A stretch of DNA of 64,000 bases from a virus (lineage: Duplodnaviria; Heunggongvirae; Uroviricota; Caudoviricetes): the IMG/VR virus record IMGVR_UViG_3300002542_000292, one strand, 5' to 3'. Positions 16,212 to 63,485 of the stretch are shown here, piece after piece; the stretch's first letter is position 1; the number at the start of each line of letters is the position of its first letter. The notes below the pieces were generated by a model that was not told the DNA's origin, ran no database searches, and saw only the letters and a list, made by a program, of their open reading frames with translations. Both the position numbers and the translations under genes were made by a program.

Positions 16212-16220
16212 AATCTACGC

Positions 16221-39328: not shown

Positions 39329-39333
39329 CTGCA

Positions 39334-43347: not shown

Positions 43348-43531
43348 ACATTTCCTCCTCAGATGTTGTTCCATAATGAAAGGATACCCTAAATGTATGC
43401 GACAAGTCAATATACATATTACGATGGATCTATGCATGGGATTCCCCGCATAATGTATTGACTTGCTGCGAGACATGTATGTAAAATGAAACATAATAGC
43501 AGATTTCATATTCTCCATAGGAGGAAAATAC

Positions 43532-43903: not shown

Positions 43904-43919
43904 CCTCATGAAAATGCGT

Positions 43920-43955
43920 GAGCCCAGCACATTGTGCTGGGCTCTCAATTTTTGG
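43920..43955. terminator. Bidirectional terminator GAGCCCAGCAC-ATT-GTGCTGGGCTC plus TCAATTTTTGG
   Basis: 11-bp perfect stem. Confidence 0.8.
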
Positions 43956-43959
43956 CACA

Positions 43960-44226
43960 TCAACGATCTTCGACAATCAGTCGAATCATCGTGCGTTCTT
44001 CGTTGTCGAGTTTGACGTCGCCGAATGCGGGAATGGCGATGAGGTTTTTCCCGCTGGTTGCCGTGATGCCACGTGCAATGGCCACCGCCTTGATTGCTTG
44101 GTTGACCGCTCCTGCACCGATAGCATGCAATTCCACACGTTGTGCGGTCTTGAGTTCCCCCGCAATGGCTCCTGCTACAGACGTTGGGCTGGATTTCGCG
44201 GAAACTTTCAGAACTGTAACTGCCAC
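43960..44226 (-). CDS. spoVS: SpoVS (stage V sporulation protein S) homolog
   Basis: VLKVSAKSSPTSVAGAIAGELKTA...AIGAGAVNQAIKAVAIARG...IPAF matches B. subtilis SpoVS closely over 86 aa as recalled; GGGAGGAG RBS, GTG start. Confidence 0.8.
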   Translation of the reverse strand: MAVTVLKVSAKSSPTSVAGAIAGELKTAQRVELHAIGAGAVNQAIKAVAIARGITATSGKNLIAIPAFGDVKLDNEERTMIRLIVEDR

Positions 44227-44306
44227 TGTTTTCTCCTCCCACTGTAAAAGATGTGGAATCTACATGAAATTATATCATGGAGAACGACGTCCGTCAATAA
44301 TATATC

Positions 44307-46265
<1,959 letters not shown>

Positions 46266-50084: not shown

Positions 50085-51275
50085 TCAGTCGTTTGTTCCT
50101 TGAAGTTGTGAATCGAGGAAGTCCACCAAGTGGACGAACCATCCTTCAACCGTTTGCGGCATGGTCGGACTGCCCCATTCCACCTTTCCGTGGTGGGATG
50201 CAAGGATGTTCAGGAAATGCCAATAGTCCTTTTCCGAAAGTTCGATGTTCTGTTCCTTGCAGAACTGTTGGAACATCATGGGGCCGATGACGCGGTGTTC
50301 CAAAATGCCATACGTCGGATCTCTGTCGATCTTGCCTTCTGTCGTGTACTCGTAGATTTTGCCCATGTCGTGCCATATGACAGTAGCCAAGATGAAATCG
50401 CGATTGACTTCGCGGCTTCCTTGCTTGACCATTTGCTTCGCCATGTTTTCGATGATCCAGTACATGTGACCGGCGATGCTGCGCAGGGCATCCGCATACT
50501 TGGATTCTGTTCCGGTTTCCTTGTATTTCTTAATTTCCTTCAGGGCAAAATCCACAATTCTCGCATACAAAACGGACGACGTACTGACGACATCTTTATT
50601 CGATGCGGACGTCAGGAAATAGGCGAGACGAAGCAGGCCCCACGTATGCTCGACGAGTCCGTGGATGTATGCATGGTGGTGACGGCGTGCAGCCGGACTG
50701 ATAACGAACTTGTTCCAATACGTACGGAGTCCTTCCATAGCAATCGTCTTGTACGTGGGGTTTTCGATCTTGTCGAGGATGAGATACATTTCCACCACAA
50801 GATCTTCGATGTTTGCTCGGCATTTTGGCAGGTAGGACAGGTAAGCATCCGGAGAACGTTTCTTGTCCGTATCCACGGAGAGGTTCTTGAGTTGCAACGT
50901 CTTGTTGCCGGAACCTCTCGGGAATTCGCTGACGTTTGCTGTGATTTCGATGAGTTTGTATTTGTCGATAATTTCTTCTTTGATCTGCTTCAGGTCAATG
51001 CCAGGCCTGGAGAAGATCTGCGCCGGATACGAACCGTACGAATCATGTACACGCATCTTGAGCATTGGTTCCCCGGTGCTCGTCGTCGCAAGTTCGCAGT
51101 CCGTGATGAGCACCGTAGTCACGACTTCCGTGCCAAAGGATGCCGTATGGATGGCATTGTTCTCGCGGAATGTCGGTACAGGGAACTTCTGCAGAATTTC
51201 CTGCCGTTCGGGACAGTTCACGTTGATGCCTGTATCCACGAGTCCGAAGATGTGATTCTGTGCATGATCGAACAT
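50085..51275 (-). CDS. OB-fold plus HD-domain phosphohydrolase/nuclease (YhaM-like)
   Basis: HD-type motifs HHHAYIHGLVEHT and VIWHDMGK, with an extra N-terminal domain. Confidence 0.55.
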   Translation of the reverse strand: MFDHAQNHIFGLVDTGINVNCPERQEILQKFPVPTFRENNAIHTASFGTEVVTTVLITDCELATTSTGEPMLKMRVHDSYGSYPAQIFSRPGIDLKQIKEEIIDKYKLIEITANVSEFPRGSGNKTLQLKNLSVDTDKKRSPDAYLSYLPKCRANIEDLVVEMYLILDKIENPTYKTIAMEGLRTYWNKFVISPAARRHHHAYIHGLVEHTWGLLRLAYFLTSASNKDVVSTSSVLYARIVDFALKEIKKYKETGTESKYADALRSIAGHMYWIIENMAKQMVKQGSREVNRDFILATVIWHDMGKIYEYTTEGKIDRDPTYGILEHRVIGPMMFQQFCKEQNIELSEKDYWHFLNILASHHGKVEWGSPTMPQTVEGWFVHLVDFLDSQLQGTND

Positions 51276-51413: not shown

Positions 51414-53609
51414 ATGAATGGAGGGATGGAAGAAGTGGCAGTCATCAAACCGTTTGACCTCACGCATTTGTATTCCAGTGCAGAGGAATACAAAAAAGAC
51501 CTCGCTGCACTTGAATATGTGTCGAATGAGATCGGAAGACTCCATGATGAAATAAAGACTGCAATGAACGACAATGCACCCAACGCTGCACTCGAAGAAA
51601 AAATGCAAACATACATCGCTCTGATCAAGCAGAAGGAGTATCTGTACTATGCAGTCGCTCAAGCAGAAAAGAACTTGGAACAGGGCATTGACATGCTTTC
51701 TCAATTGGAACACGTCAGTATGCCGGACGGCAAGCACATCAGAGTAGTGAAAAGGGACGACTTCTTGCACGCACAGGTGTACGTGTTGGACGAATCGGAT
51801 CGCGTGCAGGACACTATTGTGTTGGAAATGGCATCCAAGCCGGAGGACGTTGCTAAGGTACAGGGAGTCATCAACGATCTGCATGCCTATTTGACGGAAC
51901 GCCTGAAAGAAAACGTGCATGATGTCGATGAACCCGTATACGACGTGCAGCAAATCGCTGAAATCGAACAAAACGCAAGACAATTGGAAAAGGCAAACGA
52001 GAAAATGGAGATGTTTGCCGATTTCAAAAAAATGATGGCTGACCTCGGCGAGAAGCTTGCACCGTACATCGGCCGAGCGAAGGAAATGACACAACAGTTG
52101 TCTGAATACGTCAAATCTAAATTCCAAGTCCTGAAAGTCAGCATCAACGAATGGGGTCAGTACAACTTGGGTGGATACCGTTCCGTGCGCAAGGCCTTCG
52201 ATTCCTTGAATCAGTTGGAACAAGACTACAAGGAATACGCACAAATGCTGGACGACGCATGGAAAAAACGGGAAGAAGTGTCGGACAAGATGGCTGACAT
52301 CGACAAAAAGATGGACAGACTGCAGCACGGAAAAGGGTTCAAGAACCTGTTCACAATCCATAAGGACAAAAAGTTGGAACAACTGTATATGGAATACAAG
52401 AGCCTGAGCCATCAACACGATATGCTAAGCCTCCACATAGAAAAAATGAAAAAGAGCTTGGACATCATTCGTCACAGACGCATGAGTGCTCTCGGTGTGG
52501 ATACTATGGATCTATCGGACAAAACGGTCGGTCCGTATACCATACAGGTACAAAAGGACAAAGATGGCATCGGTGTCGTGCTCAGCTATCGCGGAAAACC
52601 GTACGAGCACATTTATCTGCCGATCGATGACAAACGTCCTATGGCTGTTCGGCTGGCAGAATTGGAAAGGTTCAACAAAGCAGTCAAAAGCATGAGTCCG
52701 AAATCGATTGACGAACGTTCTCCGGAACAAAGCGTGGACCCAGAACTCGAAAAGTACGTACAAGACAAGAAAAATGGGTATACAGACCGCATACGCAACA
52801 TTATGACAGAACTCGAGAATGCACCGGACGCCGCATTTGCGAAAGAAAAGATGAAGGAACTCATCGAAATTGCACAGGAATACTCGAACTACAGCAACCA
52901 CGCCTGCGACATGTATATCGATGCAGAAGGCAACTTCAATCTGGATTTCGTGGACCAAAACCAGAACAAGCTGCATGAAACGTTCCTTGTAAAAATGAGT
53001 CCAGAAGTCAGCAAAGAAGTCATGAACGTTGCCTACAGCATGGGCGGCGTGAACGACATGACGTATGCTATCGATCAGTCGCAGGAATTCGAACTTGCTT
53101 CTTCGTTGTACATCAAGCAATACAAACAACTTTCCCAAAAGTACATTGAAGCCAATGATATGGAGGGTCTCCGCAGGCTCAACGACACCTTGGTGAATCG
53201 CATGACATCTTTCGGTCAAATGTTGGTCGGAGATGCAGTGGTCACGGTTTCCAGGTTCGGTGACGGATTCAAGTTGCACGTACAGACACCAAACGGTCGT
53301 CCGGAAGTCGTCGTATGCCCGGTGGGTCTTGATGGAAAAATCGAAATCGAACAGCTTGAAAAGCTTGTCCATCGTACGGTTGAGAAAGCACGTGAAACCA
53401 AAGTGTACGATCGTATCCGCGATCTGCCAGGGGATACCACTTCGGACCGGACACAAGACAGGGAAGCAGATATTTCGCAACAGGGAATCGAAAATACGAG
53501 AAATGCTTCTGCGAACATATATGATACCATATCTCGCATGGATGTACGTGACAATTCGGCGAAAGAACGGGAAAGGGATGCGGTGGAACGAGAAGCGGAA
53601 CGCGTTTGA
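51414..53609 (+). CDS. Large coiled-coil-rich hypothetical protein (731 aa)
   Basis: Long ORF, highly charged. Confidence 0.5.
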   Translation: MNGGMEEVAVIKPFDLTHLYSSAEEYKKDLAALEYVSNEIGRLHDEIKTAMNDNAPNAALEEKMQTYIALIKQKEYLYYAVAQAEKNLEQGIDMLSQLEHVSMPDGKHIRVVKRDDFLHAQVYVLDESDRVQDTIVLEMASKPEDVAKVQGVINDLHAYLTERLKENVHDVDEPVYDVQQIAEIEQNARQLEKANEKMEMFADFKKMMADLGEKLAPYIGRAKEMTQQLSEYVKSKFQVLKVSINEWGQYNLGGYRSVRKAFDSLNQLEQDYKEYAQMLDDAWKKREEVSDKMADIDKKMDRLQHGKGFKNLFTIHKDKKLEQLYMEYKSLSHQHDMLSLHIEKMKKSLDIIRHRRMSALGVDTMDLSDKTVGPYTIQVQKDKDGIGVVLSYRGKPYEHIYLPIDDKRPMAVRLAELERFNKAVKSMSPKSIDERSPEQSVDPELEKYVQDKKNGYTDRIRNIMTELENAPDAAFAKEKMKELIEIAQEYSNYSNHACDMYIDAEGNFNLDFVDQNQNKLHETFLVKMSPEVSKEVMNVAYSMGGVNDMTYAIDQSQEFELASSLYIKQYKQLSQKYIEANDMEGLRRLNDTLVNRMTSFGQMLVGDAVVTVSRFGDGFKLHVQTPNGRPEVVVCPVGLDGKIEIEQLEKLVHRTVEKARETKVYDRIRDLPGDTTSDRTQDREADISQQGIENTRNASANIYDTISRMDVRDNSAKERERDAVEREAERV

Positions 53610-53626
53610 GACATCACTTCACCAAA

Positions 53627-53652
53627 AAGGACGGCAGACATCTGCCGTCCTT
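53627..53652 (+). terminator. Hairpin AAGGACGGCAGA-CA-TCTGCCGTCCTT
   Basis: 12-bp perfect stem. Confidence 0.65.
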
Positions 53653-53737
53653 CAAACATTTTTCCACAGGTTTGACAGCATGTACATAAAGTGTTATAAT
53701 GTATGTAAGGACATAATATACGAGGTGCCGTGAGGTC

Positions 53738-55729
53738 ATGAAAAACATACTTGCATACAGCATGCTTGGGTGCCTGTTGGTACTCGAAGTACTCGGCATA
53801 GCATCAAACATACCACAAATGTTCATTCAGCCGAAACAGTTTGCAGAGAATATGCAATGGATGGATCCCCAATGGATCGGTCTGATTCTGTTGGCCGTTT
53901 TGGCGATCATGAGGAAAAAATACTCCGAATACCTGTACGGCTGGTTTGACAAAATATTCGTAATTGCTGTATGCCTTGGAGTGCTTGCCTACGGTTCGCA
54001 ACTCATCCATTTGGGAATCGTGCATTGGCTGGATGGACAAGATTTGGGACAAGGCGGACTCGGTGGACTGGTTGCTGCTATTGCATACAGGGTATCTGTG
54101 GTACTTGCCTTGGTCGTCATAGTAGTTATTATCCAGTCCAGGTTCGGAATGCTCCTCATGCAGCCAAAGGACCAAATCGAATTTGGTGCTTCCAAAAACA
54201 AAGGGAGATTCAAAGAAACCAAGTTCAGGAAGGAATTTGACATCGATCATGTACCAAAAAAGAATCCGGGGGATATTCTTGTATGTTGGGACCGGCAGAC
54301 GGGCAAGGGTGTCATAATTCCGGAAAAGGACAGAAGCCTGCACCTCTTCTGTGCCGGTCCTACGGGTTCCGGCAAATCTTCTACTCTGGTCCTGCCGATG
54401 ATCTACCAAGATTTGAAGGTACCAAATTCCGGCGTCGGACTCATAGAACCCAAGGGCGACATCGCAGAGACTGCCTATAAGATGGCTATTATGTTGGGAC
54501 GGAAGGATGCTGTATATTTCGACCCAACCAACAAAGATACTACTGTATATTTCAACCCGCTCGACCCAATGAACGGTACCGACTATGACGTCATCAACCT
54601 CATGACTACAGTGTATGACGGCATGGCGGGTGGTTCTAACACGGACCCATTCTTCCACAAGAACAGCATGATGGTTCTCCGTAAATCCTTGGACCTGTTG
54701 CTTCGTCTTAAGCGTTTGGAAGGTTCGGTCCTGACGCTCCGTGAACTCGGAAGGTTCCTGACGGGCAAGACGGTCATGATCGATTACTGCAAAAGGCTCG
54801 CTTCATACCGGAGACCGGAAGACGAAGCACTCTTGGAATGGTTCTATTCGGAACTCTTGGCTGACACCAAAAATGCGCAGAACAACCAAGGATACTACGT
54901 GGGACTGCGTCAGGAAATTGAACTTTTGGGTGAACTTGATTGGCTCAACGGAGATCCCAAGACCGGACGGTCCCAACTCAACTTCGACGAATTGTTGGAA
55001 AACGGCGGAGCATTCTTCGCCAGCACGGGACTCGGCGCGCTGGGTACGATGGGTAACTATCTCGGTCAATTTCTTATCATGGCATTCCAAAACGCCGTGT
55101 TCCGCAGACCGGGAAATGAAAATACGAGAAAACCATTCTACATGTACATCGACGAATTTTCACTGTATGCCAACGACAATTTCGAACGATGGTTGGCACT
55201 CGCACGCTCCTATCGTTGCCCGGCACACCTGTTTACACAAGGTACGGCTCAGCTCGACAAGGTAAGCGAAGAATTCAAACGTTCTGCAATCAACAACTGC
55301 CGACACAAGATTATCTTTGCACCAGAAGAAGAATCGGAAGCCAAGTATTGGTCGGAATATTTCGGAGAAACTTACAGGGAAAAAGTCAGCAAAAACGTGA
55401 GCAAGGGTACTTCCAAGAGATGGAATTGGCTCAATCTCATGGATACTCCGGACAACATCAACGATTCGGAAGGACAAAACGTCAGCGAAGAATTGGTCAA
55501 AAACTTCACGCCCACCGACATTATGAACCTGCCATTCAAACACGTCATCTACAAAACGGTCAAAGATGGCACCAACCAAATGGCAAGATACGGCGTGACA
55601 GATTGGATTCCAAATCGAGTCAACGACGTTCTCAAAAAGATAAACATAAAGGATCACAAGCCGAATATTCACATGCAACGCAGTACGGAACCCAATCTCT
55701 CGGGAGAAGAAGATCTCGAATTCGCATGA
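53738..55729 (+). CDS. Membrane-anchored P-loop DNA translocase, VirD4/TraG-like type IV coupling protein (FtsK-like not excluded)
   Basis: About 4 N-terminal TM helices, Walker A CAGPTGSGKSS, Walker B FYMYIDEF. Confidence 0.6.
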   Translation: MKNILAYSMLGCLLVLEVLGIASNIPQMFIQPKQFAENMQWMDPQWIGLILLAVLAIMRKKYSEYLYGWFDKIFVIAVCLGVLAYGSQLIHLGIVHWLDGQDLGQGGLGGLVAAIAYRVSVVLALVVIVVIIQSRFGMLLMQPKDQIEFGASKNKGRFKETKFRKEFDIDHVPKKNPGDILVCWDRQTGKGVIIPEKDRSLHLFCAGPTGSGKSSTLVLPMIYQDLKVPNSGVGLIEPKGDIAETAYKMAIMLGRKDAVYFDPTNKDTTVYFNPLDPMNGTDYDVINLMTTVYDGMAGGSNTDPFFHKNSMMVLRKSLDLLLRLKRLEGSVLTLRELGRFLTGKTVMIDYCKRLASYRRPEDEALLEWFYSELLADTKNAQNNQGYYVGLRQEIELLGELDWLNGDPKTGRSQLNFDELLENGGAFFASTGLGALGTMGNYLGQFLIMAFQNAVFRRPGNENTRKPFYMYIDEFSLYANDNFERWLALARSYRCPAHLFTQGTAQLDKVSEEFKRSAINNCRHKIIFAPEEESEAKYWSEYFGETYREKVSKNVSKGTSKRWNWLNLMDTPDNINDSEGQNVSEELVKNFTPTDIMNLPFKHVIYKTVKDGTNQMARYGVTDWIPNRVNDVLKKINIKDHKPNIHMQRSTEPNLSGEEDLEFA

Positions 55730-55746
55730 ACTGCACGTGAAATATG

Positions 55747-55776
55747 ACAAGGGACGGCTTTTCAGCCGTCCCTTGT
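55747..55776. terminator. Hairpin ACAAGGGACGGCT-TTTC-AGCCGTCCCTTGT
   Basis: 13-bp stem between convergent genes. Confidence 0.7.
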
Positions 55777-55789
55777 CGTATATATGAAT

Positions 55790-56440
55790 TCAGTTTGAAA
55801 GCATGCCCTCCAATGCCAACACTATCACGTAGGAAACGAAAATGGATGGAAGGAGGGGGAAACTCGTTTTCTTCTGTGCTAGGGCGATCACGCTCTGTAT
55901 GACTGCTGCAACTGCAAAGACGACAAGTACGGCGAGAATCATCCAACCTTTGACAAAGGCGATGGCTGTAAACATGAATATGTCACCGCCACCGATACTG
56001 TGATCCCACATCTTTTTCCCCACGATGTTGAAAATGACAAAGGTAAAGAATGTTGCAACAGGGGGAACAATGTAGTGAAATACGTACGACCACATACTCG
56101 ACATATCGTACATGAAAAAATATGCCGTCGCCATTGAAAAGCCAGTGACGTTCATCAAAATCATCAGAGGGTACGGAACTACATTGGCATACAAATCCGT
56201 AGCCACGGCAATGCACAAAATCCACAGCAAAACGAGGTTCATGATGGTTTCGTACGTCGTTGTTGCTCCAAGTTCCATAAAATACCGGCAGAAGTAGGTG
56301 AATATGCATGCCAATGACGTTCCCAAAAAAGCATGTACGATCCTGCTCTTTTTCTGCTTGCCGAACTTCGCATCTATGTATTTGGACATCCATGCAAACA
56401 TGATGGGAATGCCCACGATAGGTAAAATGTACACATACAT
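55790..56440 (-). CDS. A24-family prepilin peptidase-like polytopic membrane aspartyl protease
   Basis: Polytopic membrane protein with VATDLYANVVP and IGGGDIFMF, resembling the two conserved Asp motifs of TadV/PilD peptidases. Confidence 0.5.
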   Translation of the reverse strand: MYVYILPIVGIPIMFAWMSKYIDAKFGKQKKSRIVHAFLGTSLACIFTYFCRYFMELGATTTYETIMNLVLLWILCIAVATDLYANVVPYPLMILMNVTGFSMATAYFFMYDMSSMWSYVFHYIVPPVATFFTFVIFNIVGKKMWDHSIGGGDIFMFTAIAFVKGWMILAVLVVFAVAAVIQSVIALAQKKTSFPLLPSIFVSYVIVLALEGMLSN

Positions 56441-56585
56441 ACGGCATCACACCCAACATAGTTATTACTTTTATTTAACCATGTTCCGTATGTATTTGTC
56501 AATATGCTTTGAACAAAGCACGAGGCAGTACATATTTGTACTGCCTCAAGCTGCCTCAAACTGCTTCAAATTGTTGCAAATTAAA

Positions 56586-56663
56586 TCATTTTTCTTGTCT
56601 TCGTTTTTCCAAAGCAACCGTAAGCAGAACGAACACACCCAACGCAAAAAGGAACAGATACAT
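56586..56663 (-). CDS. Mini-ORF (25 aa, MYLFLFALGVFVLLTVALEKRRQEK) with a perfect conserved RBS motif
   Basis: GTGTAAGGAGTGTGCACC-ATG read on the minus strand; terminator hairpin (GAGGCAGTACA...TGTACTGCCTC at 56526-56551) follows. Confidence 0.35.
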   Translation of the reverse strand: MYLFLFALGVFVLLTVALEKRRQEK

Positions 56664-56734
56664 GGTGCACACTCCTTACACAAAATGTTTATAAAAATTA
56701 TAACGTGTAAGGAATTATGCACACAATAATTTAA

Positions 56735-56917
56735 TCACCGAAGCATTCTCACGATGTCATTGTAGAACATCAGTGCGAATCTGCCCACCACAATGAGAAG
56801 GAATATCACGAATATCCATAGGACGATTCTTAGCCATAGTGGTTTCTTGTCATGGTAATGATAATGCTTGTGATAGTGTTGAGCATTGCGATAACGTCTG
56901 CGCGCCATGTGTTCCAC
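56735..56917 (-). CDS. Small His-rich membrane protein (60 aa)
   Basis: N-terminal HYHKHYHYH and one TM helix; same operon as 56928-57914. Confidence 0.45.
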   Translation of the reverse strand: MEHMARRRYRNAQHYHKHYHYHDKKPLWLRIVLWIFVIFLLIVVGRFALMFYNDIVRMLR

Positions 56918-56927
56918 CTCAATCTCT

Positions 56928-57914
56928 TCAAATGATGAGCAAACCTTCTTTATTGACTTGCATGTCGGACCTCACGGCCCGAAGCAGATCGCGTCTTCCG
57001 TCGATCACTTCTTCATGACCGAGAAAATGAATCGGGTCAAACTTCCTGGATTCGAATACAGAAAGTTCAAACAAATTGTGTTGCTGTTTCCCGTTGGTGA
57101 GGTTGCAATACCAAATGTCCGCATAGGGACCGTATTTCTTGATGTCTTCCATGGTGGCGACTATCACGCGCATACGGCTTCCTGCTTCTTTCAAGTACAA
57201 GTTGACCGTGTTTATGATGTTCTGAACGCGCACTTTGTTGAGGAGCGTTACGAACATAATGATTTGTTGGTCAGCCTTGTACCCGTGCAGATGGAAATAT
57301 GTCAGATAGTTCCGAATCTTGGCGTCGATCATTTGCAAGTTCTGTTTGCCAGAATCGAGTTCCAGATTGAATGAAGATTCTCCGCCATCGTGAGTAAAAT
57401 ACCCAAGTGCATCTGGGATTATCTTTGGAGAGCCATCGTCATACGGATACAGACTTTCACATTCGATGGGACCTCTCCAAAGAAGGAGACCGGAATTTGG
57501 CACGTTGTCGTGTTCGATGAAAGACATCATGACCTCCGTAGCTGCACTGTTGTGAGCTGCGAATACCAGCATGCCGGCCGGTGTGCGATTGAGATTTTTC
57601 GGAACCGAAGGATCCACACTGTGCAGAATTTCGATTCCTGCTTTTTTGATGAAGTAGTAATAATAGTTGTTGAACTGCACGCATCCTATATAATCAAGTT
57701 CCTTGAGTGCAGAAACGTACCATCTCACGTTCCTCTCGTTTTTGTAGCACAAAAGTCTCTTCATATCAGATACACGCAGGAAGTCATATCTGAGCAATAC
57801 TTTGAGGAACGGTTCGTAATGGGGATTATACAGGTTGTTCGGGTCTTTTGGGAACCTTGGGTTCCATTTATTCTTTTCAATAAGCTTTTTTATCTTTGCC
57901 CTGGAATCTGTCAT
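56928..57914 (-). CDS. Hypothetical protein (328 aa); possible DNA-binding or replication-relaxation-type function
   Basis: ORF only; the function guess rests on its placement in the plasmid-like module. Confidence 0.35.
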   Translation of the reverse strand: MTDSRAKIKKLIEKNKWNPRFPKDPNNLYNPHYEPFLKVLLRYDFLRVSDMKRLLCYKNERNVRWYVSALKELDYIGCVQFNNYYYYFIKKAGIEILHSVDPSVPKNLNRTPAGMLVFAAHNSAATEVMMSFIEHDNVPNSGLLLWRGPIECESLYPYDDGSPKIIPDALGYFTHDGGESSFNLELDSGKQNLQMIDAKIRNYLTYFHLHGYKADQQIIMFVTLLNKVRVQNIINTVNLYLKEAGSRMRVIVATMEDIKKYGPYADIWYCNLTNGKQQHNLFELSVFESRKFDPIHFLGHEEVIDGRRDLLRAVRSDMQVNKEGLLII

Positions 57915-58087
57915 TCCTTCACCTTCTTGGACTTCGTAGTTCTTTTCATCAAGGCACGAATAAACTATTTGGATACCTCAATTGTATCATGTGTGTCGAA
58001 GTTTGTCAATACTGTATACTTGCAATAAATGGCAGGACATGTTACAATAAAGGTAAGGAATATGTTTAGTGTAAGGAGTGTGGGAAT

Positions 58088-58354
58088 GTGCAAACGGATG
58101 TGTTGCTTCAAACCTTGGGGATTGTGAACTTGGTAACATTGCTTTTGTACATCGCGGATTATTTGGGGGCGATGAATAGGGGGTTTAGGTTCCCCAACGT
58201 GATCATTTGGCTCCCCACCATTGCATTCGGTTCATTCGGGGCATTTGTAGGAGTGTATACAAGCGGTCACAAATTGGAACGTCCGGAATTCAGATTTGGG
58301 ATTCCGTGCCTTGTGGTCGCACATTTGTTTGCCCTAGCAATCCTCATGATGTAA
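58088..58354 (+). CDS. Small membrane protein (88 aa)
   Basis: GTG 10 nt after GTGTAAGGAGTG; 2-3 TM helices. Confidence 0.5.
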   Translation: MQTDVLLQTLGIVNLVTLLLYIADYLGAMNRGFRFPNVIIWLPTIAFGSFGAFVGVYTSGHKLERPEFRFGIPCLVVAHLFALAILMM

Positions 58355-58356
58355 AC

Positions 58357-58395
58357 AAAAAGATGGAGAATGCATCACGCATTCTCCATCTTTTT
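58357..58395. terminator. Bidirectional terminator AAAAAGATGGAGAATGC-ATCAC-GCATTCTCCATCTTTTT
   Basis: 17-bp perfect stem; overlaps the stop of the primase-polymerase gene. Confidence 0.8.
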
Positions 58396-59640
58396 GTTTA
58401 CAGACTTTATAATGCTCATGAGGTAATTGTGGCGACTTCCATACCGTTCCCTGTATTTTTGACCGATCTTGTATCGTTCGTCTTCATACAAGTTCCTGAT
58501 AGCAAGTGGCGTGTAGCCCATCCTGCGAAGTTCGTATATCACCTTATAGTCGAGTTCCGATCTTCCACCACGCAGGGTTCCGTTCATAATTTTCACTCGA
58601 AGGGCAAACGGCAGTTCGGAAACTACGATCTTGTCCTTCGTTGCAACCTCCTTGCGAAGCTTCGCCATATGCTTTATGACACGCATGGCATCTTCACCGA
58701 GTGGAAACCTTGAGAATTCCTCTCCCGTGTGGAGGATGAACATGCCATCTTCCATGTCGATGTCGGCTTCGACTGGAGGATCTATCGGATAGTCGATGAT
58801 GCCGTTCGCCAAGTTGTCCACGATAATGTCGGTCCATATCTGCGGGAAGTTCTCCGCCCGCTGTATTTTCCTGATGTGCGGATATAGGCGATCTTTAGCC
58901 ATCCTCACAAGCTTCTTGTGTTCGTCCAAATCCTCCAGACGCATAGGACGGAATTGTTGTTTCACTTCGTCCCCCATAAGTTCGTTGATGTCTATATCCA
59001 TTTTGAACGATTCAAAGTTCTGGACATCATACGCCAAGCTTGGGTCGAAATGCACAATGCGCACCTTTTTCAGGTTGCTTTTATCCTTCATGTTGAAGGT
59101 GAAAGGGACGCGAAGCACGCGGTCCAGATTGAACGTGGAGTCCCCCTGCACAGATTCGCTGAGGCCCTTGAGAATCCCCTTGATGTATGCCTTGCAATCG
59201 AGGTCCTTCACATGGTACGTTTCCTTCAACTTCCAATAGCAATGGTATCCATTGCCCGACATGATGACAAGCGTCGGTTTTTGTTCCATGTTCATGATGC
59301 TTTTGAAGTGTTCGTCCAGGGAAGTGTTGATCTGCTTTCCGTCCACGTCTACCCATAGAAAGGGAACATCGACGATCAGACTTTCTTCCGCATGTTTGTC
59401 GACGCTTTCTCTGCGCGGGCAGACGCCGAAATAGCAGTTTTCATACACTCTGAGTTTCTCAATTCTGTTGGCTGCATACTTCAGCCACGAAGGGTCGAAC
59501 AAGGAATACGATTTCACGCTCGGTATGCGGTTCGAACCCATGAACATCAATTCCACATGTCCGCGTTGACCTTCAAACATGTATTGAAGAAATTGTTCCA
59601 CGTTTTTAATGACGGCGCCGTTTTGCAACGCTCGCACCAC
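58375..59640 (-). CDS. Primase-polymerase (archaeo-eukaryotic primase superfamily) replication protein
   Basis: DVDGK and SGNGYHCYW motifs typical of the PrimPol / plasmid RepB-prime-type catalytic domain. Confidence 0.6.
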   Translation of the reverse strand: MVRALQNGAVIKNVEQFLQYMFEGQRGHVELMFMGSNRIPSVKSYSLFDPSWLKYAANRIEKLRVYENCYFGVCPRRESVDKHAEESLIVDVPFLWVDVDGKQINTSLDEHFKSIMNMEQKPTLVIMSGNGYHCYWKLKETYHVKDLDCKAYIKGILKGLSESVQGDSTFNLDRVLRVPFTFNMKDKSNLKKVRIVHFDPSLAYDVQNFESFKMDIDINELMGDEVKQQFRPMRLEDLDEHKKLVRMAKDRLYPHIRKIQRAENFPQIWTDIIVDNLANGIIDYPIDPPVEADIDMEDGMFILHTGEEFSRFPLGEDAMRVIKHMAKLRKEVATKDKIVVSELPFALRVKIMNGTLRGGRSELDYKVIYELRRMGYTPLAIRNLYEDERYKIGQKYRERYGSRHNYLMSIIKSVNKKMENA

Positions 59641-59763
59641 CTTTACATTTGGGTACTTTCCAACAAAAAATATAATATACGTTTTCTTGACCAGTCAAGC
59701 AATTTCTTGCTATAATTTTTATATAAGGCTCGTCCTAATATATATACATATCAAGGAAGGAGT

Positions 59764-60237
59764 ATGAACATGGATTTGAACACTGCACTTTCCCAACTTC
59801 GGAATATCTGCATCAACACGGGCAACCAACACGTGTATGACTCCGTCAAAGAAACCTTGGACCGTTCCGCCGTCAAGAACGAAACCATCCAAGCAAGCAA
59901 GGTGGCGGAACTCATCGAATATGTGAAAACCAATTCCTCGTATTCTGGTCAAGAAATCAGTCAGATTATGAAAAGCCTCGGCGCGGAATTCTTCCGCATT
60001 ACGGAAAACACCCCTGGACAAATTTCCTTCACATGCAAGATTAAACGCAAGGTGTACAATGTGAAGATCTTGCACCCGACATCCCGCTACGTACTCGGAC
60101 AAGGACCGTGGAAAGTCACGCCGGCCGTGTACACAGACAGCGCCCAAAAGGAAGCAAGGAAGTTGCAGGAACTCCTTCTCGACAAATATCCGTATAAAAA
60201 AGTCGAAATCCAGACGGCAGACTACGTGTTGGTATGA
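59764..60237 (+). CDS. Hypothetical protein (157 aa)
   Basis: GGAAGGAG RBS; terminator downstream. Confidence 0.5.
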   Translation: MNMDLNTALSQLRNICINTGNQHVYDSVKETLDRSAVKNETIQASKVAELIEYVKTNSSYSGQEISQIMKSLGAEFFRITENTPGQISFTCKIKRKVYNVKILHPTSRYVLGQGPWKVTPAVYTDSAQKEARKLQELLLDKYPYKKVEIQTADYVLV

Positions 60238-60250: not shown

Positions 60251-60290
60251 ACTTGAAGGCAGGAATGCTTAAGCATTCCTGCCTTCAAGT
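60251..60290. terminator. 40-nt perfect palindrome ACTTGAAGGCAGGAATGCTTAAGCATTCCTGCCTTCAAGT
   Basis: Between convergent genes. Confidence 0.75.
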
Positions 60291-60946
60291 ATGTCGACCA
60301 TTTTGGGGATATCGTTTGTGATGAATTTGCCATATTCTTCCAGGTATTCTGCCGTAATTCCCGACTGTAGCGTTGCATATTCTGCGAAGATGGAAAGAAG
60401 ATCTTCCACGATGTTCGGATCTTGATCTCCTATTTCTTCGACGAGAGCGATGTACTTCCCATTGAGGTGGAACAGGCGACATGCGCAAAAGTCGAAAGCT
60501 TTGGTGTTGTTCTGCATGCGGATGATGTCTTCCACGTCGGAGAAGGTATACACCGCATAATCCGCAGGAATGACGTCGAGTGCAATTTCTCCTTGTTCGA
60601 CGTGTCCTTCATCGTAGTAATCTTCCACCACGTCTTCGTCTTCGTCGGTATCTTCGTCTTCTTCTATATCCGCGCCACAGCTCAGGTACTTTACAAGAGC
60701 CATGACGTTCGGTTCAGACTTGTCTTTTTCTTCGCAAATGGTGACTTGAAATTCCGTGGGTTGTGCGGCAAGGTCGTATTTCCTTACCACCACATCTATG
60801 GCATAAGTCGCCAGACGTTGCGTGGCTTCCACACTTTTGCGCACCTGATTCGCATTTACTCCAACGCTTTCCAGAAGGCTAGCCTGGTCGAATATGCAGA
60901 CGAATTCGTTTTCGTTTTTCCTGATGATTTGAACCACGAATAACAC
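60269..60946 (-). CDS. Highly acidic hypothetical protein (D/E-rich tract)
   Basis: 225-aa ORF with IEEDEDTDEDEDVVEDYYDE. Confidence 0.45.
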   Translation of the reverse strand: MLFVVQIIRKNENEFVCIFDQASLLESVGVNANQVRKSVEATQRLATYAIDVVVRKYDLAAQPTEFQVTICEEKDKSEPNVMALVKYLSCGADIEEDEDTDEDEDVVEDYYDEGHVEQGEIALDVIPADYAVYTFSDVEDIIRMQNNTKAFDFCACRLFHLNGKYIALVEEIGDQDPNIVEDLLSIFAEYATLQSGITAEYLEEYGKFITNDIPKMVDILEGRNA

Positions 60947-61066: not shown

Positions 61067-61096
61067 TTGACAATGCAACTGCATACATGATATAAT
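61067..61096 (+). promoter_or_regulatory. Consensus promoter TTGACA-N18-TATAAT
   Basis: TTGACA 61067-61072 and TATAAT 61091-61096 read directly; ~100-nt leader with CTTGCAAAC/CTGCAAAA repeats before the ParM-like gene. Confidence 0.6.
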
Positions 61097-61200: not shown

Positions 61201-62253
61201 ATGTCACTGAAGGTTTCCGTAGACGCGGGGTACGGCTTTACCAAAGTCATCTCCAGCAAAGGAAAGCAAGCCGTTTTCCCAAGTCTCGTCGGATACGGAC
61301 GAGACAGGCTCAATCTGCTGAGCGAGAAAGATGGCAAGGAAAACCTGGAGAACCTCCAGGTAGTCATTCGGGATGGCGGCGAAACTTACAACTACTTCAT
61401 CGGCGAACTTGCCAAACGCGAGAGCGAGAACGCAACCTACATCATGGGGACCGACCGGCTGGCGGACCACCGGGCGAAGGCTTTGGTGCTGACGGCTGTG
61501 GCTGTAGTCATGGGGGATCACAACGACTCCGTCGAAGAACTCGCATTGGGTCTGCCCCTCCAATACTACAGCAAGCATCGGGGAGAACTGCAGAAAGCTT
61601 TCGAACAAACGAAGGCAGAGATCTCCTTCGTCTCCGGCGGATTCGTTCCGAAAACCATCGAATTCAACAGGGTGAGCGTTTACCCGCAAGCGGCCGGCGC
61701 TCTTTGGGCGCAACTTTTCAACGACAAGGGTGAATTTCGGAATCCGAAGCTTTCGGGTCTTGTTGGACTCATTGATATCGGGTTCAAGACGACGGATTTC
61801 ATCGTTATCGACCTCAACGACGGAATGCGGCTCCGTTCGGAACTGTCTGGTACGATCGAACAAGGCATGCGGCAGGTCATCGAAAATTCGCAACGTTGGT
61901 TCGAACTGCAGGTCGGCAATTCCGTGGATCCCAACGAATTCGAACACGCCATGCTGAAGGGCGACTGCCAATTCACCTACAGCCAATACATCGGCGGGCA
62001 GCGCATCCGCAAGGAATACAACCTCAGGCCGATCTACGACAAATTCAAAGCCGAACTTGCAACGACGATCAAGGAACGTGTGCGGCAGAAGTGGGGTTCG
62101 CGTATCAACTTTTTCCACATGGTGTTCCTTGCGGGCGGCGGCGCGATGGCACTGCACAAATACTTTGACGATTTCGAACTCGAAAGCAAGCTGTGCAACA
62201 CGCCGCAAATGTCGAATGCGAAGGGATTTCTCCTTATGTCCAGCATCAATTGA
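61201..62253 (+). CDS. ParM/StbA-family actin-like ATPase
   Basis: N-terminal VSVDAGYGFTKV (actin phosphate-1 motif), LIDIGFKTTD (phosphate-2); GGAGGT RBS. Confidence 0.7.
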   Translation: MSLKVSVDAGYGFTKVISSKGKQAVFPSLVGYGRDRLNLLSEKDGKENLENLQVVIRDGGETYNYFIGELAKRESENATYIMGTDRLADHRAKALVLTAVAVVMGDHNDSVEELALGLPLQYYSKHRGELQKAFEQTKAEISFVSGGFVPKTIEFNRVSVYPQAAGALWAQLFNDKGEFRNPKLSGLVGLIDIGFKTTDFIVIDLNDGMRLRSELSGTIEQGMRQVIENSQRWFELQVGNSVDPNEFEHAMLKGDCQFTYSQYIGGQRIRKEYNLRPIYDKFKAELATTIKERVRQKWGSRINFFHMVFLAGGGAMALHKYFDDFELESKLCNTPQMSNAKGFLLMSSIN

Positions 62254-62442
62254 TGCAGGACGATATACGAAGGGGATGTGTACATACAGTTCACATCCCC
62301 TTTTATCATTTTTGGCAATATACATACAATCCGTCTTGTTAACAAAGACTTTTATTGGAAAGTCTTGACAAAATACCCAACCATATGGTAGAATCAAAAT
62401 ATGGATTTGTGAATATTATGTGTAGTGTAAGGAGTGGTTGGA

Positions 62443-63485
62443 TGTATATTGTCAGACAAGTTCAAGGGCAGGAAGGGATCGTGAATGCATTTACCTTCAT
62501 GCCCAGAGGTTCTCTGTTGAAGGAGTGCGCGGATTTTATCACCGTACACTGCCGGATGTCAGAATTCATCGATGTGCCAAGCGGTCGCATGAACATGGTG
62601 GTAGAGCTTGGCGCACCGGGATTCCGCAGGTACACGGGACAACCGTCCTTCATGTTGGGACTTGTTTCCACTGCGGACGGAATTCGGTTGCATTATCCGG
62701 AATCCCATGCCGGAATGTCGGATGCAGATTTCCGCAAAATGGTCGGACTGGATGACGACCGCGAGTGGGACGAATTCCGTTCCGAACTTGCGGAAGATGT
62801 GTTCGCAGCTTGCGAACAGATGGGCTTCGCCAACAAGAACTTCCGTATTCGCGTCATCTATGTTCGCGGAGAACCACGGAAGATTCGGTTCCGTCCGAAA
62901 TCGATGATTGCGGACTATCTGATGGAGGTCGGGATCGACCTCGACCTATCCGGGTTCATCGATTTGGAAAACCGGCCCAAGAAGAAGGGCAAGGACAACG
63001 AACCCATCGAAGTCTATCTGGCACAACTCCGCAAGGAACTCCGCGCAAAAGGGTGGTCCGAAGCGGAAATCGAAGCGGAAGTGGAAAGACAGTCCACGGT
63101 TGCCCAGTTCGACATCATGCTCAGCCTGTACTACACGACATGCGGTCAATTCTTCCCGCTCGCAATGTACACTTCAGCCAGCGGGGGAGTAAAGTTTTGG
63201 AATGGCACGGAATCGAACAGATACCAACAAGATCTGGTGGGGATCGTCAGGGTGCCGCCCGAAAAACTCAAGGACTTCATGGAGAACCTGCATGGGGAAG
63301 TGTTGGCGGTTCTCCATGAAATGGGGATCAAATACTTGTCCAATTCGGTGTTTGATCTCGGTCTCGATGAACCTTGGGCAGATTCCGTCCGGGACATCGA
63401 CATGGAGACAATCAGCAAACTCCGGAAAAAACCGACCAAACCGACCAAACCGACCAAAAAGACCTCCAAAAAAGTCGCTGTCTGA
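62443..63485 (+). CDS. Hypothetical protein encoded downstream of parM-like; C-terminal (KPT)3 basic repeat
   Basis: ATG after GTGTAAGGAGTGG; tandem CCGACCAAA x3 at 63429-63456. Confidence 0.45.

What the first reader, a model, noticed from the sequence alone, without database searches (positions are those of the whole stretch)
53738..59640. Plasmid-like DNA-handling module: VirD4/TraG-like translocase, A24 prepilin-peptidase-like protease, small membrane peptides, primase-polymerase
Within 6 kb lie:
- a polytopic P-loop DNA translocase of the coupling-protein or FtsK type (53738-55729);
- on the other strand, a polytopic protein with GGGD and DL motifs resembling TadV/PilD prepilin peptidases (55790-56440);
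- an operon of a 328-aa unknown protein, a His-rich 60-aa membrane protein and a 25-aa hydrophobic peptide with the conserved RBS motif (56586-57914);
- a PrimPol with GNGYH (58375-59640).
This combination suggests a conjugation-like or pilus/competence-like DNA transport or injection apparatus, or a phage-plasmid maintenance-and-transfer module, rather than ordinary phage morphogenesis. No cognate pilin or secretin was identified.
Basis: partly seen in the sequence, partly recalled or inferred. Interest (0 to 1): 0.7.

Follow-up and report, generated by a model that had tools for sequence, protein, structure and literature searches.

The report
Transfer-and-maintenance core of a giant element
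This 6-kb stretch is the plasmid-style core (DNA-nicking enzyme, membrane DNA pump, replication primase, an unusual membrane protease) of a roughly 300-kb, previously undescribed mobile element of a Gram-positive bacterium. The element mixes conjugative-plasmid genes with jumbo-phage genes.

Summary
All the ORFs exist at the stated coordinates and are conserved in four related lineages.

- **53738-55729:** a genuine VirD4-type coupling protein (T4CP), not FtsK or a terminase.
- **56928-57914 (the "unknown" 328-aa protein):** a Replic_Relax (PF13814, MOBC-type) PD-(D/E)XK nickase.
- **58375-59640:** an AEP primase-polymerase whose nearest annotated relatives are plasmid RepA proteins.
- **61201-62253:** a ParM-like actin.

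The window lies on a 302-kb contig. Just outside it sit:
- a complete type IV pilus cluster with its own PilD and four prepilins (left side);
- a TrbC-like protein, an 846-aa ATPase and a second Replic_Relax gene (right side). This right-hand module is shared with phage SPO1 and with conjugative C. botulinum plasmids.

The T4CP's relatives are on Bacillota megaplasmids, where T4CP, Replic_Relax, Tad pilus genes and a prepilin peptidase cluster together.

My best reading is a DNA-processing, transfer and maintenance backbone of a giant extrachromosomal element. Whether that element is a megaplasmid or a jumbo phage-plasmid is unresolved. It carries 14 tRNAs, a PurZ-like gene and an AR9-like VWA protein, but no virion gene appears in the ~92 kb I could see. 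The A24 protease's substrate is unknown.

The parts
53672..53700 (+). Consensus sigma-A promoter (TTGACA-17-TG-TATAAT, 12/12) upstream of the T4CP gene
53738..55729 (+). Type IV coupling protein (VirD4/TraG/TraD family), 663 aa. About four N-terminal membrane segments, Walker A at 207-214, Walker B D472-E473.
55742..55781 (.). 18-bp inverted repeat between the convergent T4CP and A24-like genes; probably a bidirectional terminator
55790..56440 (-). Divergent, fast-evolving A24 (GxGD) aspartyl membrane protease, 216 aa. Catalytic D82 and D153. No N-terminal Zn/methyltransferase domain, so TadV/FlaK-like.
56521..56548 (-). Terminator-like 12-bp hairpin ending the relaxase operon
56586..56663 (-). 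Conserved 25-aa single-helix membrane peptide (MYLFLFALGVFVLLTVALEKRRQEK) with an AAGGAG RBS
56735..56908 (-). Conserved 57-aa protein with a basic, His-rich N-terminus and one membrane helix
56928..57914 (-). Replic_Relax (PF13814, MOBC-type) PD-(D/E)XK nickase/relaxase candidate, 328 aa. Invariant KIIPD167...LELD187SGK motif.
57981..58009 (-). Promoter (TTGACA-17-TG-TACAAT, 11/12) of the relaxase / 57-aa / 25-aa operon, conserved in relatives
58088..58354 (+). DUF1294 small membrane protein, 88 aa, syntenic in all four lineages
58375..59640 (-). AEP primase-polymerase, 421 aa (DVD 98-100, SGNGYH 128-133, D173); probable replication initiator
60269..60937 (-). MecA-like adaptor protein, syntenic in all lineages
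61201..62253 (+). ParM/ALP actin-like partition protein with a 12/12 consensus promoter at 61067-61096
50085..51275 (-). YhaM-like OB+HD nuclease, syntenic upstream neighbour. Its role in the module is not established.
51414..53609 (+). 731-aa protein of unknown function directly upstream of the T4CP, conserved in relatives

Best explanation
The region is the DNA-processing, transfer and maintenance core of a ~302-kb extrachromosomal element of a Bacillota host.

Proposed mechanism:
1. The 328-aa Replic_Relax protein (HTH plus PD-(D/E)XK nuclease, MOBC type) binds and nicks a specific site on the element.
2. The membrane-anchored VirD4-type ATPase recruits that nucleoprotein complex and drives the DNA to a membrane channel for cell-to-cell transfer.
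3. The AEP primase-polymerase initiates or primes replication of the element.
4. The ParM-like actin segregates copies.
5. The A24 GxGD protease removes class-III leader peptides from pilin-like proteins of the element. Candidate substrates are the four prepilins of the type IV pilus cluster about 60 kb away, or pilins not yet seen. The resulting surface filament would make or stabilise cell contact, as type IV or Tad pili do on other conjugative plasmids.
6. The two tiny membrane proteins in the relaxase operon are probably accessory membrane partners of the T4CP or channel.

Shown: family membership of each protein, catalytic motifs, conservation, synteny, promoters, and the presence of pilus and ATPase genes on the same contig.

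Inferred: nicking, coupling, actual transfer, the protease's substrate, and any physical link between these parts.
For: - T4CP identity comes from three Pfam models above threshold, from NCBIfam and from DotL.
- Its homologues are almost absent from 50,697 phage records (one partial hit). They are present on 440 plasmid records, mostly Bacillota megaplasmids.
- PF13814 is the MOBC relaxase superfamily and is typically paired with VirD4 (PMC5357655). It has a PD-(D/E)XK fold (PMC3424549).
- On Geobacillus pGspE55-1, the P. thiaminolyticus megaplasmid and a 159-kb metagenomic contig, the homologous T4CP sits within about 15 kb of Replic_Relax, a Tad-type pilus locus and a prepilin peptidase. pGspE55-1 also has PrgI, DUF87, a 220-aa A24 next to a Flp-like pilin, and ParM.
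- The gene order T4CP / A24 / small ORFs / Replic_Relax / DUF1294 / PrimPol / MecA / ParM is kept in four lineages whose proteins are 28-90% identical. All genes are under purifying selection.
- The A24 fold and both catalytic Asp residues are confirmed.
- The PrimPol's annotated relatives are RepA of pCD6-type plasmids and a P4-family primase.
- The same contig carries a complete T4P cluster with four class-III prepilins. It also carries a TrbC-like protein, an 846-aa ATPase and a second Replic_Relax.
- The ATPase/TrbC pair occurs on pCLK and pCLJ, which are experimentally conjugative by an unknown mechanism (PMC2884020).
- A type IV pilus assisting conjugation is established for IncI plasmid R64 (PMC12282955).
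Against: - No canonical VirB4, VirB6 or VirB8 channel was recognised in the ~92 kb read. The 846-aa ATPase matches no VirB4 model, and its family also occurs in strictly lytic SPO1-like phages.
- No oriT was identified.
- The 328-aa protein has no tblastn match on any PLSDB plasmid. It could serve replication rather than transfer.
- The pilus cluster has its own canonical PilD, so the second A24 protease is not obviously needed. No prepilin lies near it.
- Three quarters of the contig were not readable. Many genes are of jumbo-phage type: 14 tRNAs, a PurZ-like gene and an AR9-like VWA protein.
Confidence: 0.55

Rival explanations
1. The element is a jumbo phage (or phage-plasmid). These genes would then serve intracellular phage DNA replication, processing and positioning rather than conjugation. 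On this reading the T4CP/Replic_Relax pair is a paralogue of the SPO1-type ParM / ATPase / nickase module, used for nick-primed replication or DNA movement inside the infected cell.
For: - An 846-aa ATPase (phrog_5156, 2e-187) and a second Replic_Relax lie 3-8 kb right of the window. That Replic_Relax is 29% identical to SPO1 gp27.3, annotated 'replication initiation by nicking'.
- They follow the SPO1 order: ParM-like gp27.9, small ORFs, gp27.4, gp27.3.
- The two Replic_Relax copies share the PD...ExD motif.
- Phage-type gene load: 14 tRNAs; a PurZ-like gene plus a phrog_2971 pair that is syntenic in jumbo phages; a VWA protein 37% identical to AR9/PBS1; PhoH, RNR and ThyA.
Against: - T4CP homologues are essentially absent from phage records and from IMG/VR. 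They are common on megaplasmids.
- The T4CP and the 846-aa ATPase are not detectably related beyond the P-loop.
- No virion, terminase or lysis gene was found in 54+ ORFs of the window or in its flanks.
- The lineage is absent from IMG/VR.
- VWA/MoxR, ParM, GSP synthase and the ATPase/TrbC pair also occur on bona fide plasmids.
Confidence: 0.27
2. A pilus/competence-like DNA uptake or injection apparatus, in which the T4CP, the A24 protease and the small peptides form one machine with the type IV pilus.
For: - A type IV pilus cluster with PilB, PilC, PilM/N and four pilins is on the same element.
- There is a second A24 protease next to the T4CP.
- The element encodes MecA-like and Spx-like competence regulators.
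Against: - The pilus cluster is about 60 kb away and has its own PilD.
- No ComEA, ComEC, secretin or PilT was seen.
- The T4CP, the A24 gene and the relaxase operon are separate transcription units.
- No known system couples a VirD4 ATPase to a T4P/Com machine. This last point is from my own knowledge.
Confidence: 0.08
3. The translocase is a packaging or FtsK-type segregation ATPase, and the module is ordinary phage or chromosome housekeeping.
For: A weak PHROG hit to a family annotated as 'terminase large subunit' (phrog_2666, 31.8 bits, residues 448-561 only).
Against: - The T4CP models score much higher and cover both halves of the NTPase domain.
- There is no FtsK_SpoIIIE or terminase nuclease domain.
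- The protein has an N-terminal membrane anchor.
- The adjacent gene is a MOBC-type nickase.
Confidence: 0.03

Closest known systems
T4CP / Replic_Relax / Tad-pilus / prepilin-peptidase clusters of Bacillota megaplasmids (Geobacillus subterraneus pGspE55-1, Paenibacillus thiaminolyticus punnamedSY20)
   Same: - The T4CP is homologous (33-35% identity over about 70% of its length).
- A Replic_Relax gene lies on the opposite strand just downstream.
- The same replicon carries an A24 peptidase of about 220 aa, ParM, GSP synthase, VWA and an M23 hydrolase.
   Different: - Here the pilus system is a PilB/PilC/PilM-N type with N_methyl pilins, not Tad/Flp, and it lies about 60 kb away.
- The A24 gene sits between the T4CP and the relaxase, without an adjacent pilin.
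- The relaxase is 328 aa rather than about 430, and has no tblastn-detectable plasmid relative.
- No PrgI/DUF87 (VirB3/VirB4-like) genes have been seen so far.
MOBC (PF13814) relaxase plus VirD4 mobilisation modules, e.g. streptococcal IME class 8 (PMC5357655)
   Same: The same two protein families are paired as a compact DNA-processing unit.
   Different: Those are small integrative elements with a serine integrase. This module sits on a 300-kb replicon alongside PrimPol and ParM. The relaxase is very divergent and its activity is untested.
Bacillus phage SPO1 gp27.9 / gp27.4 / gp27.3 module (ParM-like, large P-loop ATPase, 'replication initiation by nicking')
   Same: The element has a direct homologue of this module just right of the window: ATPase 28% identical over 98% of its length, nickase 29%, ParM 25%. 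The logic is the same: an actin, a membrane-associated ATPase and a PD-(D/E)XK nickase.
   Different: The T4CP in the finding is a different ATPase family that SPO1-like phages lack. The function of the SPO1 module is unknown.
Inocle giant extrachromosomal elements of oral Streptococcus (PMC12340149)
   Same: A 250-400 kb plasmid-like element of Bacillota, defined by a conserved Replic_Relax-domain marker. It carries VirD4, gyrase, tRNAs and mostly unknown genes.
   Different: - No sequence-level relation was shown.
- Inocle has 24-32% GC; this window is mostly 43-52%.
- Inocle has VirB4, which has not been found here.
- Inocle's marker is about 454 aa.
IncI plasmid R64 thin pilus (a type IV pilus with its own prepilin peptidase, auxiliary to conjugation)
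   Same: A conjugation-type DNA transfer system and a separate type IV pilus are encoded on one replicon, and the pilus supports mating.
   Different: R64 is a Gram-negative plasmid with an MPF-I T4SS and a MOBP relaxase. A role for the pilus in this element is only inferred.
FlaK / TadV-type non-methylating A24 GxGD proteases
   Different: - It falls below the Pfam gathering score.
- Only about 10 cluster representatives among 1.84 billion proteins are detectable with a profile.
- It evolves about 4-5 times faster at non-synonymous sites than its neighbours.
- No adjacent substrate gene is present.
AEP-type plasmid replication initiators (RepA of C. difficile pCD6-type plasmids; P4-family primases)
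   Same: The AEP catalytic motifs are present, and these are the nearest annotated relatives (25-29% identity over the N-terminal ~200 aa).
   Different: No Pfam model matches. The C-terminal 200 aa have no recognisable helicase or origin-binding domain. No origin was identified.

Membership tests
Type IV coupling protein (VirD4/TraG/TraD) | Matches the T4CP NTPase-domain profiles above curated thresholds | tested here: met
   PF02534 58.9 bits (cut-off 20.1), PF12696 50.1 (22) and PF10412 35.1 (20.5). It falls below every NCBIfam equivalog cut-off, so it belongs to no named subfamily.
Type IV coupling protein (VirD4/TraG/TraD) | N-terminal membrane anchor plus Walker A and Walker B motifs | tested here: met
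   Hydrophobic segments fall within residues 3-143. GPTGSGKS is at 207 and D472-E473 form Walker B. These residues are invariant in an 11-sequence alignment.
Type IV coupling protein (VirD4/TraG/TraD) | Genetic association with a relaxase | tested here: met
   A Replic_Relax/MOBC gene lies 1.2 kb away, and the synteny is kept in four lineages and on megaplasmids.
Type IV coupling protein (VirD4/TraG/TraD) | A cognate VirB4-type T4SS channel on the same element | tested here: inconclusive
   A TrbC/VirB2-like protein (below threshold) and an 846-aa P-loop ATPase lie 3-6 kb right of the window. The ATPase matches no VirB4 model and its family also occurs in lytic phages. About 70% of the contig was not readable.
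Peptidase A24 (prepilin / preflagellin GxGD aspartyl protease) | Pfam PF01478 gathering score | tested here: not met
   24.2 bits against 26.5 for this copy. Orthologues in L005 and L022 do carry the precomputed PF01478 hit, and 12 of 13 aligned relatives hit it at E<1e-3.
Peptidase A24 (prepilin / preflagellin GxGD aspartyl protease) | Two catalytic aspartates in the conserved D-x5-(I/V)P and G-x-G-D motifs | tested here: met
   D82 (ATDLYANVVP) and D153 (IGGGD) are invariant, and the C-terminal P-x-x-P-S-I motif is also kept. The protein aligns with the element's own PilD and with a plasmid TadV.
Peptidase A24 (prepilin / preflagellin GxGD aspartyl protease) | Polytopic helical GxGD-protease fold | tested here: met
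Peptidase A24 (prepilin / preflagellin GxGD aspartyl protease) | A cognate substrate with a class-III signal peptide | tested here: inconclusive
   None is in the window or the right flank. Four prepilins (G|MTLIE, G|MTLIE, G|YTMIE, G|ATFME) lie 6-17 kb left of the window, but next to a canonical PilD. Cleavage is not testable with these tools.
Peptidase A24 (prepilin / preflagellin GxGD aspartyl protease) | N-terminal Zn-binding/methyltransferase domain (PilD subclass only) | tested here: not met
   There is no A24_N_bact hit and no CxxC pairs. The protein therefore belongs to the TadV/FlaK-like non-methylating subclass.
MOBC relaxase / Replic_Relax (PF13814) | Profile match above the gathering score | tested here: met
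   43.4 bits against 25.3, covering 178 of 191 profile positions. It also hits phrog_9381 'replication initiation by nicking' at 4.9e-10.
MOBC relaxase / Replic_Relax (PF13814) | PD-(D/E)XK-type catalytic signature | tested here: met
   KIIPD167 ... LE185-L-D187-SGK is invariant in four lineages. It is shared with the second copy on the element and with SPO1 gp27.3. The fold assignment for the family comes from PMC3424549.
MOBC relaxase / Replic_Relax (PF13814) | Site-specific nicking at an oriT and transfer dependence | not testable with these tools
   No oriT was identified. The inverted repeats in the region all look like terminators.
Archaeo-eukaryotic primase (AEP) primase-polymerase | Catalytic motifs I (DxD), II (sGxGxH) and III (hD) | tested here: met
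   DVD 98-100, SGNGYH 128-133 and NLD173RVLRVP.
Archaeo-eukaryotic primase (AEP) primase-polymerase | A curated family model match | tested here: inconclusive
   There is no Pfam, NCBIfam or PDB sequence hit. PHROG primase/polymerase families hit at 2.5e-12 and 1.1e-10. tblastn reaches plasmid RepA and a P4-family primase.
Phage-plasmid / jumbo phage | Virion and packaging genes (capsid, portal, terminase, tail) | tested here: inconclusive
   None was found among the ORFs of the 64-kb window or in about 28 kb of flanks, using Pfam and PHROGs. About 210 kb of the contig could not be read.

The most novel reading that the evidence does not exclude
The ~302-kb element is a jumbo phage or phage-plasmid. 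It carries a tRNA array, a PurZ-like gene, an AR9-like VWA protein and an SPO1-type module. On this reading it has also acquired a working conjugation-type DNA-processing pair (VirD4 T4CP plus MOBC nickase), a type IV pilus and a dedicated, fast-evolving orphan A24 protease. That would make it a virus-sized element able to spread cell-to-cell without, or in addition to, particles. The A24 protease and the two micro-proteins would form a previously undescribed accessory unit of the coupling machinery.
Probability: 0.17. Interest if true: 0.85.

Novelty: new variant of a known kind. Interest (0 to 1): 0.55.

Why it matters
Giant extrachromosomal elements of Gram-positive bacteria (Inocle, Hodor, botulinum-toxin megaplasmids) are only now being recognised, and how most of them transfer is unknown.

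- **A compact, conserved core to test.** This lineage is absent from PLSDB, INPHARED, IMG/VR and GTDB genomes. It offers a T4CP, a MOBC-type nickase, an orphan A24 protease, two micro-proteins, a PrimPol and a ParM. These sit next to a module shared with lytic SPO1-like phages and with conjugative clostridial plasmids.
- **Blurring of the plasmid/jumbo-phage boundary.** Homologous 'actin + ATPase + nickase' modules appear on both sides of that boundary. The finding suggests concrete experiments on what such modules do.
- **A new A24 subfamily.** It adds a divergent A24 protease subfamily whose substrate is unknown.

Tried and rejected
- **Nucleotide similarity.** blastn of 53000-60000 against PLSDB and INPHARED found no match.
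- **PDB sequence searches.** phmmer with the PrimPol, the A24-like protein and Replic_Relax found nothing.
- **Finding A24-like relatives.** tblastn against plasmids found no match. The word-indexed homologue search found only two relatives, so I ran an exhaustive HMM search.
- **First AF2 model.** With three sequences it was unusable (pLDDT 45). It was replaced by an 11-sequence model.
- **AFDB50 fold search.** The library was unavailable.
- **A positional-homologue idea.** I tested whether the 227-aa ORF downstream of the T4CP on the Paenibacillus plasmid is the A24 homologue. It shows no similarity, so I rejected the idea.
- **Prepilin searches in the window.** Two regex searches for class-III signal peptides gave only spurious hits. 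The positive controls in the flanks were found.
- **The 846-aa ATPase as VirB4.** I first read it as VirB4. I downgraded that after finding no VirB4 model or PDB match, no real similarity to the Geobacillus DUF87 protein, and homologues in lytic SPO1-like phages.
- **The VWA protein as a pilus tip adhesin.** I rejected this. Its best relatives are conserved proteins of large phages.
- **The ThyA-like gene as an SPO1-type dUMP hydroxymethylase.** It is only 23% identical over part of its length, and it is a strong match to true ThyA.
- **Hodor megaplasmids as the family.** They differ: Rep_3, ParAB and sortases.
- **Looking for the lineage elsewhere.** IMG/VR, GTDB genomes and JGI metagenomes yielded no new loci beyond one known contig.
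- **One failed look-up.** The look-up of 62355-63485 failed because the called start codon differs.

Full report
**1. What is in the sequence**

Gene callers find the same ORFs in independent assemblies.

The window is part of ENA ERZ795070 NODE_12, a 301,935-bp contig at 185x coverage. Window position 1 corresponds to about record position 66,730. A protein of the same element also occurs on a 303,462-bp contig, so about 302 kb is probably close to the full size.

No nucleotide similarity to any PLSDB plasmid or INPHARED phage was found.

**2. The individual genes**

*53738-55729 (+): type IV coupling protein.*
- It scores above the gathering threshold for T4SS-DNA_transf, TraG-D_C and TrwB_AAD_bind.
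- Its best NCBIfam match is the VirD4-like CD1115 family, though below every equivalog cut-off.
- Its only PDB sequence match is DotL.
- It has N-terminal hydrophobic segments within residues 3-143, Walker A GPTGSGKS at 207-214 and Walker B D472-E473. These are invariant in an alignment that includes 28-30% identical relatives.
- There is no FtsK or terminase domain. The one weak 'terminase' PHROG hit covers only the Walker-B region.

*56928-57914 (-): the "unknown" 328-aa protein is Replic_Relax (PF13814).*
- It scores 43.4 bits against a cut-off of 25.3.
- This family has been equated with the MOBC relaxase superfamily, which is characteristically paired with VirD4 coupling proteins (PMC5357655).
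- The family has been assigned to the PD-(D/E)XK nuclease fold, usually with an HTH domain (PMC3424549).
- The motif KIIPD167...LELD187SGK is invariant in four lineages.

*55790-56440 (-): A24 GxGD protease.*
- It misses the Pfam A24 threshold by 2.3 bits.
- Both catalytic aspartate motifs (ATD82LY..VP and IGGGD153) and the C-terminal PxxPSI motif are conserved. It aligns with the element's own PilD and with a plasmid TadV.
- 12 of 13 aligned relatives hit PF01478.
- It lacks the Zn-finger/methyltransferase domain of PilD, so it is TadV/FlaK-like.
- It belongs to a very small subfamily. Only 10 cluster representatives among 1.84 billion proteins are detected at E<1e-3.
- It evolves quickly: 28-49% identity between lineages whose T4CP and nickase are 70-90% identical, with pN 0.31 against 0.06-0.09.

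*58375-59640 (-): AEP primase-polymerase.*
- It has no Pfam, NCBIfam or PDB sequence match.
- It hits PHROG primase/polymerase families at 1e-10 to 1e-12.
- It carries the three AEP motifs: DVD 98-100, SGNGYH 128-133 and D173.
- Its nearest annotated relatives are RepA of pCD6-type plasmids and a P4-family primase.

*Small membrane proteins.* The 57-aa His-rich membrane protein and the 25-aa hydrophobic peptide keep their RBS, start codon and character in relatives that are only about 76% identical at the DNA level.

**3. Organisation**

The genes form separate transcription units.
- Perfect or near-perfect extended -10 sigma-A promoters precede the T4CP (53672-53700), the relaxase operon (58009-57981) and ParM (61067-61096).
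- The strong inverted repeats lie between convergent genes and look like terminators.
- The order HD nuclease / 731 aa / T4CP / A24 / 25 aa / 57 aa / Replic_Relax / DUF1294 / PrimPol / 157 aa / MecA-like / ParM is conserved in four lineages.
- At saturated synonymous divergence, every gene shows purifying selection.

**4. Surroundings: what kind of element is this?**

*Inside the window:* GyrA, GyrB, ThyA, NrdI/E/F, FtsH, two DnaJ-like proteins, PhoH-PIN, an M23/PcsB hydrolase, a PurA-like gene, an ankyrin protein and a NERD protein, plus 14 tRNA genes.

*Left flank.* A Logan contig is 100% identical to window 1-6108 and extends it leftwards. With two further contigs carrying the identical PilB, it shows a complete type IV pilus cluster:
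- a canonical PilD (A24_N_bact plus A24);
- a 169-172-aa N_methyl pilin;
- PilB (MshEN plus T2SSE), a PilM/N-like protein, a DUF4352 protein and PilC;
- further pilins.

Four class-III signal peptides are present in this cluster. The same cluster is conserved in a relative on a 239-kb contig whose PilB is 60% identical.

*Right flank*: HU, a TrbC/VirB2-like membrane protein (below threshold), an 846-aa P-loop ATPase, a second Replic_Relax gene (31.9 bits), a sigma factor fragment and an SNF2 helicase.

**5. Relatives elsewhere**

*Megaplasmids.*
- T4CP homologues are found on 440 PLSDB records, mostly large Bacillota plasmids. Only one partial match occurs among 50,697 phage records.
- On Geobacillus pGspE55-1, a 360-kb Paenibacillus plasmid and a 159-kb metagenomic contig, the homologous T4CP lies next to Replic_Relax and a Tad-type pilus locus with a prepilin peptidase.
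- pGspE55-1 additionally encodes PrgI, a DUF87 ATPase, an M23 hydrolase, a 220-aa A24 next to a Flp-like pilin, ParM, GSP synthase and VWA/MoxR.
- The association of T4CP, MOBC-type nickase, pilus and A24 peptidase is therefore recurrent.

*The right-flank ATPase points both ways.*
- With a TrbC/VirB2 neighbour, it is found on C. botulinum pCLK and pCLJ. These plasmids are conjugative by an unknown mechanism (PMC2884020).
- It is also found, full length, in 131 Bacillus phages. In lytic SPO1 the order ParM-like gp27.9 / small ORFs / gp27.4 / gp27.3 ('replication initiation by nicking') mirrors this element.

*Other jumbo-phage-type genes.*
- The VWA protein at the head of the pilus cluster is most similar to proteins of jumbo phages AR9 and PBS1.
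- The PurA-like gene and its upstream neighbour form a pair found in jumbo phages, where it is annotated as PurZ-like.

*Where the lineage is absent.* It is not in IMG/VR or GTDB genomes. It occurs on a single JGI contig.

*Virion genes.* None was detected in the roughly 92 kb that could be read. About 210 kb remain unseen.

**6. Interpretation**

The best-supported reading is a DNA-processing/transfer and maintenance core of a giant extrachromosomal element. Its parts would be:
- a MOBC-type nickase plus a VirD4 coupling protein (Dtr functions);
- an AEP initiator and a ParM (replication and partition);
- an A24 protease that matures pilin-like proteins for a surface filament. Precedents are the Tad loci of the related megaplasmids and the R64 thin pilus.

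The weak links are:
- the lack of a recognised VirB4-type channel;
- the absence of an oriT;
- the unknown substrate of a protease that looks redundant with the element's own PilD;
- the possibility that the nickase serves replication.

The main rival is that the element is a jumbo phage or phage-plasmid and that these genes handle DNA inside the cell, like the uncharacterised SPO1 module. The near-absence of T4CPs from phages argues against that for this particular gene pair, but it cannot be excluded. A unified competence or injection machine, and a packaging or FtsK role, are poorly supported.

**7. Verdict**

All component families are known. What is unusual is the following:
- the arrangement, with an orphan, fast-evolving A24 protease and two micro-proteins embedded between the T4CP and the relaxase;
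- duplicate nickase/ATPase modules, one of SPO1 type;
- the host element itself, an undescribed ~300-kb lineage mixing megaplasmid and jumbo-phage gene sets.

I rate it a new variant of a known kind, with moderate interest.

Noticed in passing
window 5129-16295: An array of 14 tRNA genes, all on the + strand, interspersed with small ORFs. This is typical of jumbo phages and is also reported for giant plasmid-like elements.
   Followed up: partly
window 19880-22248: A PurA-like gene (20983-22248) hits phrog_1211 '2-aminooxy adenylosuccinate synthetase' at 6e-62. Its upstream neighbour (19880-20827) hits phrog_2971. The same adjacent pair occurs in Rhizobium, Vibrio and about 200 mycobacterial large phages. 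This may be a PurZ-type 2-aminoadenine pathway. DatZ, MazZ and DpoZ were not searched.
   Followed up: partly
L009 6108-13885 and L010 329-13269 (5-17 kb left of window position 1): A complete Gram-positive type IV pilus cluster: canonical PilD, major pilin, PilB with an MshEN domain, a PilM/N-like protein, a DUF4352 protein, PilC and three further prepilins. No PilT was seen. The cluster is conserved in a relative whose PilB is 60% identical, on a 239-kb contig (L017).
   Followed up: yes
L010 329-2554 (left of the window): A 741-aa VWA protein at the head of the pilus cluster is 37% identical over its full length to proteins of Bacillus jumbo phages AR9 and PBS1. It belongs to a family found in more than 500 large-phage genomes (phrog_2426).
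   Followed up: partly
L019 13484-18026 (window-equivalent 67110-71652): A TrbC/VirB2-like 187-aa protein, an 846-aa P-loop ATPase (phrog_5156, precomputed DUF8128), a 116-aa ORF and a second Replic_Relax gene. The ATPase and the nickase are homologous to the SPO1 gp27.4 / gp27.3 module, and the ATPase/TrbC pair also occurs on the conjugative C. botulinum plasmids pCLK and pCLJ. The function of this widespread module appears to be unknown.
   Followed up: partly
window 33691-46253, 60269-60937 and flanks: The element encodes paralogues of host housekeeping and regulatory proteins: GyrA, GyrB, FtsH, two DnaJ-domain proteins, ThyA, SpoVS, a MecA-like protein, an Spx/ArsC-like protein and HU. This suggests extensive manipulation of a spore-forming Bacillota host.
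   Followed up: no
window 26497-27900: An M23 peptidase with a PcsB-type coiled coil. A large M23 hydrolase sits beside the PrgI/DUF87 genes on pGspE55-1, so this could be the cell-wall hydrolase of a transfer apparatus, or a lysin.
   Followed up: no
window 2224-4539, 6117-7142, 9520-10473, 10924-11973, 25145-26278, 38275-39288, 51414-53609: Seven large ORFs (317-771 aa) have no hit in Pfam or PHROGs. Three of them (2224-4539, 25145-26278 and 51414-53609) also gave no meaningful NCBIfam match. Any of them could be an unrecognised structural or channel component.
   Followed up: no
L013-L016 (Geobacillus pGspE55-1), L007, L008, L014: Large Bacillota plasmids from Geobacillus, Paenibacillus, B. 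thuringiensis and C. difficile share a conserved backbone block: HTH regulator, S1-domain protein, response regulator, a RecD-like helicase or AAA ATPase, the T4CP and RaiA. The Geobacillus and Paenibacillus plasmids also carry LepB and Replic_Relax in the block, and topoisomerase IA is present in all but the C. difficile record. MOB-suite types most of these plasmids as non-mobilizable, probably because the Replic_Relax relaxase is not recognised.
   Followed up: partly
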